Below are positions 3,425 through 30,826 of a DNA stretch of 35,409 bases, piece by piece. Source of the DNA: a virus (lineage: Duplodnaviria; Caudoviricetes); the IMG/VR virus record IMGVR_UViG_3300035703_000247, positions 1-35,409 of that record. One strand, 5' to 3'. Each line of letters begins with the position of its first letter. Position 1 is the first letter of the stretch. The position numbers were made by a program, and so were the translations under genes. A model generated the notes under the pieces. The model worked only from the letters and a program-made list of their open reading frames with translations. It did not search any database and was not told the origin of the DNA.

Positions 3425-3700
3425 CTAGAAGGGGATATCGTCATCAAGGCGATCACGCTGAGGCTGGTAGCCGTTGCCCTTGGCCTCATTGTGCGCGTCT
3501 ACAGGCCTAGGCTGTATCGCCTTGCCAATCTTCACCGACACCCAAGGCTCACCAGCCTGCGTCTTCTTAGGCGTAATGTCCAAGTAATGCACGCTCCCAT
3601 CAGGCAACATTACCTTACCCCGATAAGCAGGATGCCAATCCTCAGTCTTATCCTTGTTCTTAAAAGCACTGCCCTGCCCAGGTTTCATCTCATAAGCCAT
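3425..3700 (-). CDS. Putative single-stranded DNA-binding protein
   Basis: 91 aa beta-rich protein (FKNKDK...HPAYRG) ending in the SSB-type acidic tail DDDIPF. AGGAG SD. Confidence 0.7.
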   Translation of the reverse strand: MAYEMKPGQGSAFKNKDKTEDWHPAYRGKVMLPDGSVHYLDITPKKTQAGEPWVSVKIGKAIQPRPVDAHNEAKGNGYQPQRDRLDDDIPF

Positions 3701-4018
3701 AACTCACTCCTTTGAAAAGTTAACAAATACCCTTGCCATGAAATAGGGGGGAAAAATTCAGTCAAGCACCCCCAGCGCTAGGTGAGGGGTGGGGGGAGGG
3801 ATATACCCCTTTGCGGTTACATACCCCATCGCAGCCATCCATACCCTACCCCCCTTGCTTTGCGCTGTCATACCACCCCCACCCCCCGTCTACCCGTCAC
3901 AAACCCAAACGTTCGTTAGGGTCTGTTACGCCATCTGATCCTAGGCCCTACAAGGCGCTGGAAGGGTGACTGGCTACCCATGCCTAGGCCCCCTCCCGTT
4001 CGCGTCTCCTGGGGCCTT
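3701..4018. other. Non-coding G/C-tract region, candidate packaging (pac) or terminus region
   Basis: No credible ORF. Homopolymeric G and C runs and repeated (A)TACCC, upstream of the terS-containing operon. Confidence 0.4.
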
Positions 4019-4909
4019 CTAGGTGCCTTCCTGATGCCTTGGCATCTTGGTGAACATCCGATGCAGCTCAAGCACGCCAGTCCGCAGGTGTTCGGGCCTG
4101 GGCGTCATGCCCTCGGCTGCGTACGCATCCATCAGGTCTTTAAAACAATCCTCAATCTCAACCAAAGTTAAACCTTCATCTTTTAATCTTTTAACATCCT
4201 CTAAGGTTAACCTAATACCTGTGTTCTCTGTGTTCGGCGCAACTGTAGGCTGACCAATGGGTTGCCTATGAGCGCTCACTTCTGCAATGTTATCCACAGG
4301 CTCATTCGCTACTGTAGGCTGACCATTGGTGCGCTTGGCTTGGCCTCTCTTGTTGGCCTCCTTGATGGCTCTGACCGTGCGGCTCTCTCCTGGCTTTGAC
4401 ATCGCTGCTTCCTTTCTCTGATTACCTTGGTTAAATGCCTGTGCGATTAGCTTGGCAATACGTTGCTGACCTAATGGGTCTATTTCATCGTCTTTCATAG
4501 ATGGTGGCCTTGTGTCTTCCTTTGTTGATGTGATGGCTATGGCTGTGTCTACGTCAACAGTCTTGTCATAGATTACCCTCACGGTGTTTGAGCGCTCGCC
4601 TCGCCAACCCTTTTTGACAATCTCAATGTATCCCTGATCTCTGAGCTGCTTGAACTGGTTGCTAATGGCTTGCCTGCTTACTCCCATATCCTTGGCCAGC
4701 CTTGCATGGCTTACCCATGTAACCCCTGCTCTGTTGCAGTAGCTGCACACCAGCGCCAGCACTCGCATGGCTCCGTCCGTCAGGCTCTGGTCTGTGATGG
4801 CCTTCAGTGGCACCACAGCCAGCTTCCTCGCATCCGGTTCAGGCTCACGCTGGCTGACCTTGGGCTTGCGCTTGGGCAGCTTGATGACCGTCTCAGGCAA
4901 CGCGCTCAT
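4019..4909 (-). CDS. Replication initiator protein (N-terminal winged HTH)
   Basis: 296 aa. LTDGAMRVLALVCSY...WVSHARLAKDMGVSRQAISNQFKQLRDQGYI is an HTH_36-like domain. Internal DNA repeats and a DnaA box. Confidence 0.8.
   Translation of the reverse strand: MSALPETVIKLPKRKPKVSQREPEPDARKLAVVPLKAITDQSLTDGAMRVLALVCSYCNRAGVTWVSHARLAKDMGVSRQAISNQFKQLRDQGYIEIVKKGWRGERSNTVRVIYDKTVDVDTAIAITSTKEDTRPPSMKDDEIDPLGQQRIAKLIAQAFNQGNQRKEAAMSKPGESRTVRAIKEANKRGQAKRTNGQPTVANEPVDNIAEVSAHRQPIGQPTVAPNTENTGIRLTLEDVKRLKDEGLTLVEIEDCFKDLMDAYAAEGMTPRPEHLRTGVLELHRMFTKMPRHQEGT
4138..4329. promoter_or_regulatory. Putative replication origin inside the initiator gene
   Basis: Exact repeat ACTGTAGGCTGACCA at 4242-4256 and 4311-4325, DnaA box TTATCCACA at 4290-4298, AT-rich tract at ~4138-4217. 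Confidence 0.7.
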
Positions 4910-7823: not shown

Positions 7824-8036
7824 GGAGGCCTGACATGACCGCCACTTACCAACCCAAGAGCTTGGTGGCTGCTGCCGCCCCCGAGCTACTGCACAGCGCC
7901 GTGGCCATCGTCAACACCATCGTCGGGCAGGCCCCGGTGATCACAGACAGCGGGATGATGCAGGTCTGGATCAGCATTGAAGAGCTGAATCTGTTGCGTG
8001 CCGCCATCGCCAAAGCAACGGAGGCCTGACATGACC
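7824..8036 (+). repeat. 17-bp direct repeat GGAGGCCTGACATGACC (7824-7840 and 8020-8036)
   Basis: Exact repeat comprising SD plus start, flanking the 64-aa ORF. Confidence 0.85.
7835..8029 (+). CDS. Hypothetical protein (AAAPELL...LRAAIAKAT family)
   Basis: 64 aa, GGAGG SD, motif common in phage early accessory genes. Confidence 0.75.
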   Translation: MTATYQPKSLVAAAAPELLHSAVAIVNTIVGQAPVITDSGMMQVWISIEELNLLRAAIAKATEA

Positions 8037-8675
8037 CGCTTTGTCGCCTACTACCGCGTGTCTACCGACCGCCAGGGCCAAAGCGGCCTTGGCCTGGAAG
8101 CCCAGCGCACCGCCGTCACCCAGCACATCGGCGCTGCCGAGCTGGTGGCTGAGTTCACCGAGGTCGAATCTGGCCGCAAGAATGACCGCGAGCAGCTCGC
8201 CCTGGCCCTGGCCGCAGCCAAGAAAGCCAAGGCCGTCCTGGTCATTGCCAAGCTAGACCGCCTCGCCCGCAATGTCCACTTCATCAGCGGCCTGCTGGAG
8301 TCTGGCGTGCCGTTTGTCTGTGCCGATATGCCCGAGGCAGACCGCACCTTCCTGCAGATGTCTGCAGTGTTCGCAGAGTGGGAAGCCCGCAAGATCTCCG
8401 AGCGCACCAAGGCCGCTCTGCAGGCCGCCAAGGCCCGTGGCGTGCGCCTGGGTAGCCCTGCCCCCACCAAGGGCAGCGAGGCTGGCATAGAGCGCATCCA
8501 GGCCCGTGCTGATGCTTTTGCCGCCCGTGTCCAGCCCATCATTGTCAGCATCCAGGCAGCAGGCGCTGCCACCCTGCGCGACATTGCCAGCGCCCTGTCT
8601 GCCCGTGGCATCCAGACTGCCCGTGGAAACACGGACTGGAAGCCCGCCCAAGTTGCCCGTCTGATTGCCCGTTAA
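8031..8675 (+). CDS. Serine recombinase (resolvase domain plus short recombinase-type DNA-binding tail)
   Basis: YYRVSTDRQ catalytic Ser motif, ESGR, KLDRLAR, EARKISERTK, and C-terminal LRDIASALSARGIQT...W. Start reassigned to the ATG at 8031 after GGAGG. Confidence 0.92.
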   Translation: MTRFVAYYRVSTDRQGQSGLGLEAQRTAVTQHIGAAELVAEFTEVESGRKNDREQLALALAAAKKAKAVLVIAKLDRLARNVHFISGLLESGVPFVCADMPEADRTFLQMSAVFAEWEARKISERTKAALQAAKARGVRLGSPAPTKGSEAGIERIQARADAFAARVQPIIVSIQAAGAATLRDIASALSARGIQTARGNTDWKPAQVARLIAR

Positions 8676-13788: not shown

Positions 13789-14298
13789 TTACCTCGCTAA
13801 ATAGAACGATGCGGCGGTCAGCCTATTGGGATTATCTTTGAAGTAGCCAAGGCCGCGATTGCACAGATCGCACAACAGGCCGCGCACATTGCCAGTCAGG
13901 TGATTGTGATCAACGTGCATATCACCAACCTCCTGGCCGAACTGATAACCACAGATGGCGCAACAGCCGTTCTGATTTGCCAGCATCGCCGCCTTCTGCT
14001 CAGGTTCCAGGCCGTACTTGAATCGGTCGTAACACTCGCGCTGGTATCGCTTGTTTTCCGGGTGGCTCTTGTCAGACAGTCCATGCTTAAACCTGCCGCT
14101 GTTCTTGCCGGTATACCGCGCCATGCACCCGCATGATTTCGTGTGGCCGTTGCGAAGGCACCCGGTTCTGGCGATGCTTTCATTGCCGCAGTCGCAGATG
14201 CAGCGATAGGTGTATTGGCCCGCCGGAGTCTTGCTGTGGCGATCCAGCACAGTCAGCTTGCCAAACCTTTGTCCAATGAGGTCGAGTGCTTTAGGCAT
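13789..14298 (-). CDS. Free-standing homing-type endonuclease (CDCG N-terminal domain plus endonuclease VII-type His-Me domain)
   Basis: LIGQRFGKLTV...CICDCG...TKSCGC, then KYGL...QNGCCAIC...HVDHNH.TGNVRGLLCDLCNRGLG.FKD. Confidence 0.88.
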   Translation of the reverse strand: MPKALDLIGQRFGKLTVLDRHSKTPAGQYTYRCICDCGNESIARTGCLRNGHTKSCGCMARYTGKNSGRFKHGLSDKSHPENKRYQRECYDRFKYGLEPEQKAAMLANQNGCCAICGYQFGQEVGDMHVDHNHLTGNVRGLLCDLCNRGLGYFKDNPNRLTAASFYLAR

Positions 14299-29884: not shown

Positions 29885-30022
29885 TTGAGTCTTCCTGAAA
29901 CGGGTTGAACTTAGGGTTTATCGTCGCTGGTTGTCCAGGTCGCCCTGGGCCTTGACTTGTGCTTATCCTCGCACCGAGCAGTGGATTACCACCATCTATC
30001 GGCCTTGCGGTTGTCGATGGAG
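29885..30022 (-). promoter_or_regulatory. Structured capsid 5' leader with repeated GACAAC/GCC internal-loop hairpins
   Basis: ATCG-ACAA-CC-GCAA-GG-C-CGAT and GG-C-CCAGG-GCGA-CCTGG-ACAA-CC; both carry GNRA tetraloops. Confidence 0.6.
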
Positions 30023-30024
30023 GA

Positions 30025-30055
30025 ATTCTATCGCACAAGAATCAGGATGTGTCAA
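30025..30055 (-). promoter_or_regulatory. Candidate capsid promoter, TTGACA-19 nt-TAGAAT
   Basis: Near-consensus hexamers but an unusually long spacer. Confidence 0.45.
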
Positions 30056-30403
30056 CTATTTCTTGGCTGGCAGGTAGCTGGCTGTTGTGTTGCCTTTGTT
30101 CTTATTACACATCCCGCACAGGATCTGCAAGTTGTCTGGATCGTTTTTCAGGTGAGGAAAGTACTTGCGAGGCTTGATGTGATCCACGTTGATGTGTGTC
30201 CACCTCTTGATCTGCTTCTTGCACTTCATGCAGGTGCAGCCGTACTTAGCAATGGTCTGGGCCTTCAGCACAAACCACTCCTCGCTGACCATGAAGTCGT
30301 CAGTAATGAGGGCGGCTATCTCGTTGGCAGACATCTTCTCAATGCTGTTGACGAACTGGCGCTTTGCGCTCCGAACCTTAAGACTTCTAAGCAGAGGTTT
30401 CAT
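30056..30403 (-). CDS. Compact HNH endonuclease (Zn-binding, McrA/gp74-like)
   Basis: 115 aa from the ATG at 30403 (GGGGA SD). CMKC...VDHIKP...NLQILCGMCNKNKGN. Confidence 0.9.
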   Translation of the reverse strand: MKPLLRSLKVRSAKRQFVNSIEKMSANEIAALITDDFMVSEEWFVLKAQTIAKYGCTCMKCKKQIKRWTHINVDHIKPRKYFPHLKNDPDNLQILCGMCNKNKGNTTASYLPAKK

Positions 30404-30785
30404 AAGTCCCCATTGGTGAATGTTGGAGCAAAGCACAGCCTATACCGTGGTGCTGCCAAGGTTTCGCCATGCTTGGATGCTGTCCCCATCGGAGCCATGT
30501 CATCGCGTCGCACTGCCCAGACTTGCAGAACTGATGACAGATAACCGCCATCCTTTGTCCCTACCACCCGGCTCTAGGCTTAGCCCACCGCCCCCGCTCT
30601 GGCTTGCTCGTGTCACGGGGTTGTTTAACAGGCCACCACCGACGTACCGCATGGCCTGCGAGCTGGCGTAGGACAAACAAAAAGGCCGTTTACTGCTGCA
30701 CTCGGGTCGCACCCCTTAGGGAAATCCTAAGGGCCAGAATGCATGAGTAAACGGCCTTACTTTGTTGTGTGCGACGACAACGGAA
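30404..30785 (-). ncRNA. Candidate large structured non-coding RNA upstream of the HNH gene
   Basis: No convincing ORF. A 13-bp perfect stem, several hairpins, loop-bulge complementarity and long-range pairings (see findings). Confidence 0.6.
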
Positions 30786-30788
30786 CAG

Positions 30789-30817
30789 ACTTTGCCCAAA
30801 AAAAAGCCCCCTGTCAA
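30789..30817 (-). promoter_or_regulatory. Candidate sigma-70 promoter TTGACA-17 nt-CAAAGT, embedded in the terminator
   Basis: The -35 hexamer lies in the terminator loop; spacing is exactly 17 nt. Confidence 0.5.
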
Positions 30818-30826
30818 GAGGGGGCT
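30798..30826 (-). terminator. Rho-independent terminator after the scaffold gene
   Basis: AGCCCCCT-cttgac-AGGGGGCT followed by a T-run. Confidence 0.85.

What the first reader, a model, noticed from the sequence alone, without database searches (positions are those of the whole stretch)
30056..30826. Self-contained promoter + ~380-nt structured RNA + compact HNH nuclease unit between scaffold and capsid genes
Seen: the scaffold gene ends in a strong terminator, and a TTGACA-17-CAAAGT promoter built into that hairpin would restart transcription. About 380 nt with no credible ORF follow, then a 115-aa HNH gene. The interval is dense in complementary segments (plus-strand coordinates): 30629-35/30652-58 (7 bp); 30668-77/30554-64 (10 bp, one bulge); 30569-74/30492-97; 30533-39/30498-504 (7 bp, with an alternative GATGGCGG/CTGTCATC hairpin); 30456-60/30472-76; and a long-range GAGCAA/TTGCTC pairing at 30604-09/30426-31 that would cross other stems as a pseudoknot. 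Known: scaffold and capsid genes are normally adjacent in such podophages, and HNH nucleases partner structured RNAs in IscB/HEARO systems and group I introns. This protein lacks RuvC/PLMP motifs and I see no group I core. Inference: a mobile ncRNA-HNH module, possibly a ribonucleoprotein nuclease, a ribozyme or an RNA-controlled homing element, that I cannot assign to a named family.
Basis: partly seen in the sequence, partly recalled or inferred. Interest (0 to 1): 0.9.

Follow-up and report, generated by a model that had tools for sequence, protein, structure and literature searches.

The report
Self-copying-loop phage RNA, likely replication primer
The gap between two head genes of this freshwater phage holds a swappable, folded non-coding RNA whose inner loop repeats the bases at its own tail; it likely grips its own DNA to start copying, and the nuclease gene behind it is an optional, probably selfish, passenger.

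Summary
The RNA is real; the HNH is not its obligate partner. The interval is an optional cassette (54 of 74 related sites are empty) with a conserved promoter and two RNA modules. Module A (30679-30781) is a terminator-like hairpin with a hypervariable 6-bp pseudoknot, perfect in 28 of 29 variants. Module B1 (about 30404-30660) has covarying helices and no Rfam match. A 9-nt inner loop copies the 9 nt behind the RNA's 3' anchor: 7.4 of 8 positions are identical over 59 variant pairs, against 3.9 shuffled. G-for-A mismatches run one way only, as expected if the loop pairs with the template DNA strand. Such cassettes accompany 79 of 80 stand-alone initiator C-terminal halves but 1 of 53 long initiators, and one relative carries an HTH-initiator gene at this same site. 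Best reading (0.5): a ColE1-like, RNA-primed origin; untested. The HNH follows only 10 of 100 B1 copies, yet 22 of 31 HNH clusters sit behind the copy motif, likely as a homing passenger. Sibling cassettes contain Rfam Betaproteobacteria-1. The scan saw this family and its loop copy before on other DNA (e1-6316322).

The parts
30798..30826 (-). Intrinsic terminator of the scaffold gene; its loop carries the -35 box (30812-30817) of the cassette promoter
   Evidence: TTG in the loop at 17 of 18 occupied sites
30789..30794 (-). -10 box of the cassette promoter (weak variant; start predicted near 30781)
   Evidence: same position holds TATACT/TATAAT-type hexamers in 18 of 18 occupied sites
30679..30781 (-). 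Module A: 5' hairpin whose loop (30770-30775) pairs with a bulge (30706-30711) of a long stem that ends in a U tract; hypervariable, swapped between near-identical strains
   Evidence: z -5.7; 28 of 29 distinct loop/bulge pairs are perfect 6-bp complements, shuffled mean 1.05; replaced in contigs of 3 of 4 DNA runs laid
30497..30660 (-). Module B1 core: P1 30652-58/30629-35, P2 30615-20/30592-97, P3 30588-90/30569-71, P4 30574-79/30515-20 (crosses P3), optional P5 30525-30564
   Evidence: 97.3% of cells paired, 11 of 26 pairs with changes on both sides; P4
30482..30490 (-). Inner copy: 9-nt purine-rich loop behind the conserved GGCTCC; predicted to pair with the template DNA strand
   Evidence: identity covariation with 30406-30414
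30415..30481 (-). 3' domain: hairpin 30433-30472, long-range pairing partner 30426-30431, and the YCACC anchor 30415-30420
   Evidence: same layout in other RNA families
30406..30414 (-). 3' copy of the 9-nt segment; doubles as ribosome-binding site of the HNH gene; predicted R-loop entry site
30056..30403 (-). 115-aa zinc-finger HNH endonuclease gene, optional, likely a homing passenger
   Evidence: Pfam HNH 6e-10; closest solved structure 5H0M; absent from 90 of 100 B1 copies and from a close allele
30025..30055 (-). Promoter-like boxes of the capsid gene, present also in empty-site relatives (right border of the cassette)

Best explanation
The cassette encodes a conserved two-module RNA that likely acts as a ColE1-like replication primer: its 9-nt inner loop, a copy of the segment at its 3' end, is predicted to pair with the template DNA strand there and would start a lasting RNA-DNA hybrid, while the HNH gene is an optional insert that probably spreads by homing. 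Shown: promoter position, both folds, the loop copy, the one-way G/A bias, optional presence at this site, the tie to initiator genes, and the one-way dependence of the HNH. Inferred, step by step: (1) host RNA polymerase starts near 30781; (2) most transcripts stop at the U tract of module A, and the variable loop-bulge pairing, in cis or supplied in trans by the short A RNA, sets read-through and gives each phage its own specificity; (3) read-through RNA folds B1 and docks YCACC on the core just as the polymerase leaves the 3' copy; (4) the loop captures the template strand there, the hybrid persists, and host RNase H and polymerase I turn it into a primer; (5) in phages whose initiator has lost its DNA-binding half, the remaining C-terminal half would load the host helicase, so the RNA stands in for protein-iteron recognition; in this phage, which keeps an HTH initiator, it would be a spare or selfish second origin; (6) the HNH uses the 3' copy as its ribosome-binding site and would nick HNH-free alleles near the conserved tail.
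For: Loop copy: 59 distinct pairs with 46 different 3' 8-mers, mean identity 7.36 of 8 against 3.90 shuffled, maximum 4.56 in 2000 shuffles (pairs kept only at 5 or more matches; the unfiltered B1 set gave 6.88 against 3.98 over 42 pairs). Mismatches at positions 2-8: inner G against 3' A 13 times (6 after collapsing lineages), the reverse never, p 0.016; this fits rG-dT wobble with the template strand. A perfect 7-nt complement in cis in only 5 of 46 cases. The copies are 79% purine. ColE1 shows the same layout: a six-G hairpin loop near 928-933 and a six-G run near 1175-1180 of the record; passages on the persistent hybrid and the essential G-rich stretch in PMC5043065 and PMC6317783. Gene context: 79 of 80 loci chosen by the stand-alone initiator C-terminal protein carry B1 or B2 upstream, never both, and the 80th has only 147 nt upstream; 11 of 12 further stand-alone loci carry module A, against 1 of 53 loci with long initiators. 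Of 27 records searched, 17 B1 carriers match only the C-terminal half of phrog_270, 6 with the cassette at the capsid site match its HTH half, 4 have no match. L019 holds an HTH-initiator gene with three iteron-like repeats at this very site. In three complete B1 phages no helicase, primase, polymerase or HTH initiator was found among 96 of 126 ORFs scanned. At the capsid site the cassette is often followed by no gene, only the capsid promoter, which speaks against a simple leader.
Against: No activity was tested. This phage has its own HTH initiator at 4022-4909 with three iteron-like repeats. 54 of 74 related sites are empty, and one DNA run holds a contig deleted between the two copies, so the element is dispensable here. 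B2, the commonest alternative, shows no loop copy. Six mismatches are not wobble-type, and the other wobble class (inner U, 3' C) was never seen. The initiator association may reflect few evolutionary events; the 53 control loci come from other phage clades and few share the same C-terminal domain. L376 has a long initiator, a helicase and also A plus B1. That the ColE1 G loop pairs with the template C run is recalled (Masukata and Tomizawa 1990, seen only as a reference title).
Confidence: 0.5

Rival explanations
1. RNA-guided nickase: the loop is a short guide, and the HNH binds the RNA and nicks the DNA strand paired with it, for homing into alleles with the same 9-mer or for nick-primed replication.
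For: 22 of 31 HNH clusters lie right behind the copy motif, usually 1-11 nt after it; an HNH-free allele nearly identical across both copies exists; the HNH profile matches HNH domains of Cas9 and IscB structures.
Against: 90 of 100 B1 copies keep the loop copy without this HNH; the HNH clade jumps among unrelated RNA cores and some members sit behind cassettes without the motif; no RuvC, PLMP or Nop domain; the best structural relative is a plain phage HNH.
Confidence: 0.13
2. Transcription-control or immunity leader, like P4 CI or P1 c4: the short A RNA and the B module set termination or pausing for downstream genes, and the loop invades the transcription bubble to pause or release the polymerase.
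For: The cassette starts at a promoter, module A ends in a U tract and is hypervariable; the copied length matches the roughly 10-nt hybrid of elongating polymerase (PMC5043065); the 3' copy often overlaps the next ribosome-binding site.
Against: Downstream genes are unrelated from copy to copy or absent; the cassette lies upstream or downstream of the initiator remnant; no conserved cis complement of the repeat as in c4; no C4 match.
Confidence: 0.25
3. Trans-acting ribozyme or scaffold RNA of another function, with the repeat a by-product of duplication or processing.
For: Many invariant unpaired bases and two crossing helices; contigs of RNA runs cover B1 in 3 of 4 runs laid (contigs cannot show ends or strand).
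Against: A one-time duplication would not keep 46 different 8-mers matched, nor give a one-way G/A bias; no ribozyme family matches.
Confidence: 0.12

Closest known systems
ColE1/pMB1 RNA II pre-primer (PMC5043065, PMC6317783: passages read)
   Same: Promoter-led folded RNA of several hundred bases; an inner purine loop that repeats a purine run near the 3' end; a 5' part of about 110 nt suited to control.
   Different: No sequence likeness; in phages; the repeated segment is freely variable rather than a G run; no antisense RNA I found; modules are exchanged and carry an HNH; priming not shown.
Rfam RF02932 Betaproteobacteria-1 RNA (attributed from recall to Weinberg et al. 2017, PMC5737381; the name is not in its main text and the supplement could not be read)
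   Same: Five sibling loci carry RF02932 as the core in front of a related HNH; four of them show the same 3' copy domain intact, and module A is seen upstream where the contig reaches.
   Different: The window's B1 core does not match the model even at E<=10; the Rfam model covers neither module A nor the copy domain.
OMEGA systems (IscB, IsrB, IshB with omega-RNA/HEARO; features recalled)
   Same: HNH nuclease gene next to a structured RNA in a mobile unit.
   Different: No RuvC or PLMP domain, no HEARO match, RNA mostly without the nuclease, and the putative guide is an inner loop that copies its own locus.
P4 CI and P1/P7 c4 RNAs (recalled)
   Same: Same-strand small RNA at the head of a phage transcript with variable pairing loops.
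   Different: No C4 match; the direct repeat has no cis complement; the tie is to initiator remnants, not to antirepressor genes.
Free-standing phage HNH homing endonucleases; Geobacillus virus HNH 5H0M
   Same: Small zinc-binding HNH, optional, cleanly inserted, with remnants of a rival allele at its border.
   Different: Its preferred site is an RNA cassette, not a protein gene; cleavage untested.

Membership tests
OMEGA (IscB/IsrB/IshB) | PLMP (RRXRR) domain and/or split RuvC | tested here: not met
   115 aa; only HNH families in Pfam at E<=0.1
OMEGA (IscB/IsrB/IshB) | HEARO/omega-RNA match upstream | tested here: not met
   no Rfam match
OMEGA (IscB/IsrB/IshB) | RNA and nuclease always together | tested here: not met
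   10 of 100 B1 copies carry this HNH
OMEGA (IscB/IsrB/IshB) | RNA-guided DNA cleavage | not testable with these tools
   needs biochemistry
Group I intron with homing endonuclease | catalytic core matching the Rfam model | tested here: not met
Group I intron with homing endonuclease | interrupts a gene that is whole in empty alleles | tested here: not met
   empty alleles are a terminator followed by the capsid promoter
ColE1-type RNA primer origin | promoter-led, conserved, folded non-coding RNA | tested here: met
ColE1-type RNA primer origin | inner purine loop repeating a purine run near the 3' end | tested here: met
ColE1-type RNA primer origin | sequence homology to ColE1 or other plasmid origins | tested here: not met
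   no match in 72,556 plasmid records, blastn E<=0.1
ColE1-type RNA primer origin | antisense RNA I on the opposite strand | tested here: inconclusive
   no plus-strand promoter in the consensus scan, which also missed the sense promoter
ColE1-type RNA primer origin | persistent hybrid, RNase H processing, polymerase I extension | not testable with these tools
   needs experiments
Rfam Betaproteobacteria-1 (RF02932) | score at or above the gathering threshold | tested here: not met
   window: none; siblings L434, L449, L457, L479, L486 pass
P1 c4 / P4 CI antisense systems | repeated targets plus their complement within the same transcript | tested here: not met
   perfect 7-nt complement in 5 of 46; no C4 match
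Free-standing homing endonuclease | intact nuclease motif, optional, with a clean nuclease-free allele | tested here: met
Free-standing homing endonuclease | cuts the nuclease-free allele and spares its own | not testable with these tools
   needs a cleavage assay

The most novel reading that the evidence does not exclude
The inner loop is a reprogrammable 9-11-nt guide: a family of phage RNAs marks its own locus by base pairing, replaces the DNA-binding half of a replication initiator, and can hand the paired DNA strand to a 115-aa HNH, which would make a minimal RNA-guided nickase and RNA-guided origin unrelated to CRISPR, OMEGA or TIGR systems.
Probability: 0.15. Interest if true: 0.93.

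Novelty: new variant of a known kind. Interest (0 to 1): 0.78.

Why it matters
If right, a widespread group of small freshwater phages has traded protein-iteron origin recognition for an RNA that finds its site by base pairing, with 46 natural loop sequences acting as ready-made compensatory mutants. That makes the trigger of persistent hybrid formation, still called speculative for ColE1 in PMC5043065, directly testable. It also offers a function for the orphan Rfam motif Betaproteobacteria-1 and a source of orthogonal origins. The HNH clade that tracks these RNAs is either a new homing niche or a very small RNA-guided nickase.

Tried and rejected
Rfam: nothing in the window or in 14 related loci at gathering score. 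An exact pattern for module A found nothing in viral contigs because the module varies. GenBank phages: no DNA match for the window interval or the L097 cassette; one uncultured record holds A plus B2 behind an initiator remnant. Plasmids: no match. A cis partner for the repeat: none consistent. A conserved ORF in the interval: rejected, the alignment has single-base gaps and the next gene differs. GC skew: flat around the element in the window; minima near the element in two of three other genomes coincide with a switch of gene direction, so not used. The initiator C-terminal protein: model pLDDT 74, no fold match above Z 3.9, nothing by Foldseek or profile; inconclusive. B1 elsewhere in relatives with an empty or B2 site: none in 22 records, many incomplete; the only match among 23 was the known carrier. 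Genome scan: three hits, two real (bins labelled Alphaproteobacteria and Dechloromonas, possibly misbinned phage contigs), one chance match in a transporter gene. RF02932 in 151 genomes of one order: 1 hit, chromosomal, without the copy domain. RNA runs are contigs only: they cover B1 in 3 of 4 runs but show no ends, strand or level. Literature: ten searches found no paper on this family. The alignments of Fremin et al. 2023 (PMC10690425; passages read) and the supplement of Weinberg et al. 2017 could not be opened, so parts of A, B1 or B2 may already be catalogued there. No complex prediction was run, as the tool does not score RNA partners.

Full report
Setting. The window is a 35.4-kb virus record with portal, scaffold and capsid genes of T7-like head type on the minus strand, a terminase, a RecE/RecT pair and an HTH replication initiator at 4022-4909. 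Between the scaffold stop (30843) and the capsid start (29884) lie a terminator, about 380 nt without a gene, a 115-aa HNH gene and the capsid promoter and leader.

Observation. The six complementary segments exist, but their number is near chance, and the folding signal comes from the 5' 120 nt (z -5.7) rather than the 3' 269 nt (z +1.1). The promoter is weak by consensus yet conserved in position at all 18 occupied sites examined. No Rfam family matches.

The site is a hot spot for cassettes. Of 80 loci fetched with the capsid protein, 74 show both flanking genes: 54 are empty (gap up to 330 nt) and 20 occupied. The 20 are module A plus a different RNA, B2 (14); A-type plus B1 without HNH (3); A plus B1 plus HNH (1); an HNH alone before a B2 tail (1); and an HTH-initiator gene with three iteron-like repeats (1, L019). 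Among near-identical strains, module A is replaced in contigs of 3 of 4 DNA runs, one run has a deletion between two 8-nt repeats, and a contig of an RNA run joins B1 directly to the capsid promoter with 7 other letters in place of the HNH gene.

Module A. A 5' hairpin is followed by a long stem ending in a U tract. The hairpin loop pairs with a bulge of the stem: 28 of 29 distinct loop/bulge pairs are perfect 6-bp complements, against a mean of 1.05 when loops are shuffled. Several A subtypes exist, and the two common ones combine with both B1 and B2.

Module B1. A pattern scan gave 120 loci, 101 distinct copies with earlier loci. On 32 representatives, five named helices pair in 97.3% of cells and 11 of 26 pairs change on both sides; all slid controls fall below 46%. 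A further crossing helix, P4, is supported by mutual information and by 72% paired cells against a shuffled maximum of 68%.

The loop copy. Among the strongest covariation signals are identities, not complements, between the loop behind GGCTCC (30482-30490) and the segment behind YCACC (30406-30414). The same domain ends other RNA cores found upstream of more distant HNH genes, one of which is Rfam Betaproteobacteria-1. Over all families, 59 distinct pairs with 46 different 8-mers agree at 7.36 of 8 positions against 3.90 shuffled (pairs with fewer than 5 matches and a subgroup with a shifted register were left out; the unfiltered B1 set gave 6.88 against 3.98). Inner G faces 3' A 13 times at positions 2-8 (6 after collapsing lineages) and the reverse never occurs; six other mismatches are not wobble-type. 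A cis complement is found in 5 of 46 cases. The simplest partner that is always the exact complement of the 3' copy, and tolerates G in the inner copy, is the template DNA strand. ColE1 has the same layout with six-G runs; its persistent hybrid and essential G-rich stretch are described in passages of PMC5043065 and PMC6317783. That the ColE1 loop pairs with the template strand is my recall of Masukata and Tomizawa 1990, seen only as a reference title.

Tie to replication. The commonest gene behind B1 is a stand-alone protein matching only the C-terminal half of phage initiators. Of 80 loci chosen by that protein, some near-identical, 79 have B1 or B2 within about 930 nt upstream and none has both. 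Of 12 further stand-alone loci 11 have module A; of 53 loci with long initiators 1 has A or B. Of 27 records, 17 match only the C-terminal half of phrog_270, 6 (cassette at the capsid site, like the window) match the HTH half, and 4 have no match. Three complete B1 phages showed no helicase, primase, polymerase or HTH initiator among 96 of 126 ORFs scanned. Against this: the control loci belong to other clades, so few independent events may lie behind the pattern; the window keeps its own initiator with three iteron-like repeats; B2 lacks the loop copy; L376 has both systems; GC skew is uninformative; the C-terminal protein has no fold match.

The HNH. Its catalytic and zinc residues are invariant in 10 relatives and its closest solved structure is a phage HNH. 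It follows 10 of 100 distinct B1 copies with enough downstream sequence. Conversely, of 31 HNH clusters from 80 metagenome loci, 22 lie behind the copy domain (9 B1, 13 other cores), 3 behind another cassette end and 6 behind neither; one of those 6 carries Betaproteobacteria-1. On a tree the clade changes RNA family several times, and in about nine loci a remnant of the B2 tail lies at or just behind its stop. This is the pattern of a homing gene that targets these cassettes; RNA guidance is not excluded.

Known or new. Not an OMEGA system, group I intron or c4/CI member by the features tested. It works, on my reading, like ColE1 RNA II without being related to it. Its nearest catalogued kin is Betaproteobacteria-1, a sibling core. 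Ten paper searches found no account of the family; two large catalogues could not be opened. The scan had seen this family and the loop copy on other DNA (e1-6316322), and other notes propose RNA-for-initiator swaps for other RNAs; I had written down the primer reading before reading those.

Verdict. Real conserved RNA cassette: about 0.95. Loop pairs with its own template strand: about 0.7. Replication primer: 0.5. HNH as homing passenger: about 0.65; as RNA-guided nickase: about 0.13. Interest 0.78.

Noticed in passing
window 29885-30020 (minus strand): The capsid leader is itself a conserved four-hairpin RNA with compensatory changes across 25 aligned sequences, present in empty-site phages too; no Rfam match.
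   Followed up: partly
L028 2208-3001; L018, L027, L044 same site: Extra cargo sits between module A and B2: long hairpins, and in L028 a tRNA-Gln-like gene with a 73-nt insert at a relaxed ARAGORN score.
   Followed up: partly
L019 2386-2850: A 155-aa HTH initiator gene with three iteron-like repeats occupies the scaffold-capsid site instead of the RNA cassette.
   Followed up: yes
L431, L435, L438, L443, L455, upstream of the HNH: A larger RNA core of about 330 nt, with no Rfam match in the four loci scanned, ends in the same copy domain.
   Followed up: partly
L399-L402, L413, L445, L480: A further cassette type ends in a G-rich hairpin flanked by a short repeat, G for A in the inner copy of L445.
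   Followed up: partly
window 3700-4020 (minus strand): G-rich and C-rich runs and inverted repeats lie just behind the initiator gene; unexplained.
   Followed up: no
L022 and L025, just behind the scaffold terminator: A small promoter-led hairpin RNA of about 75 nt, not called as tRNA in L025.
   Followed up: no
L501/L502 (G166:C1:2769809-2769931): A chromosomal Betaproteobacteria-1 match without the copy domain, between an RNA-repair-type HAD gene and an AAA_13 gene, as in a defence-like island.
   Followed up: partly
window 13792-14298 and 7998-8675: A second nuclease (endonuclease VII/HNH) among the late genes and a serine recombinase gene.
   Followed up: no
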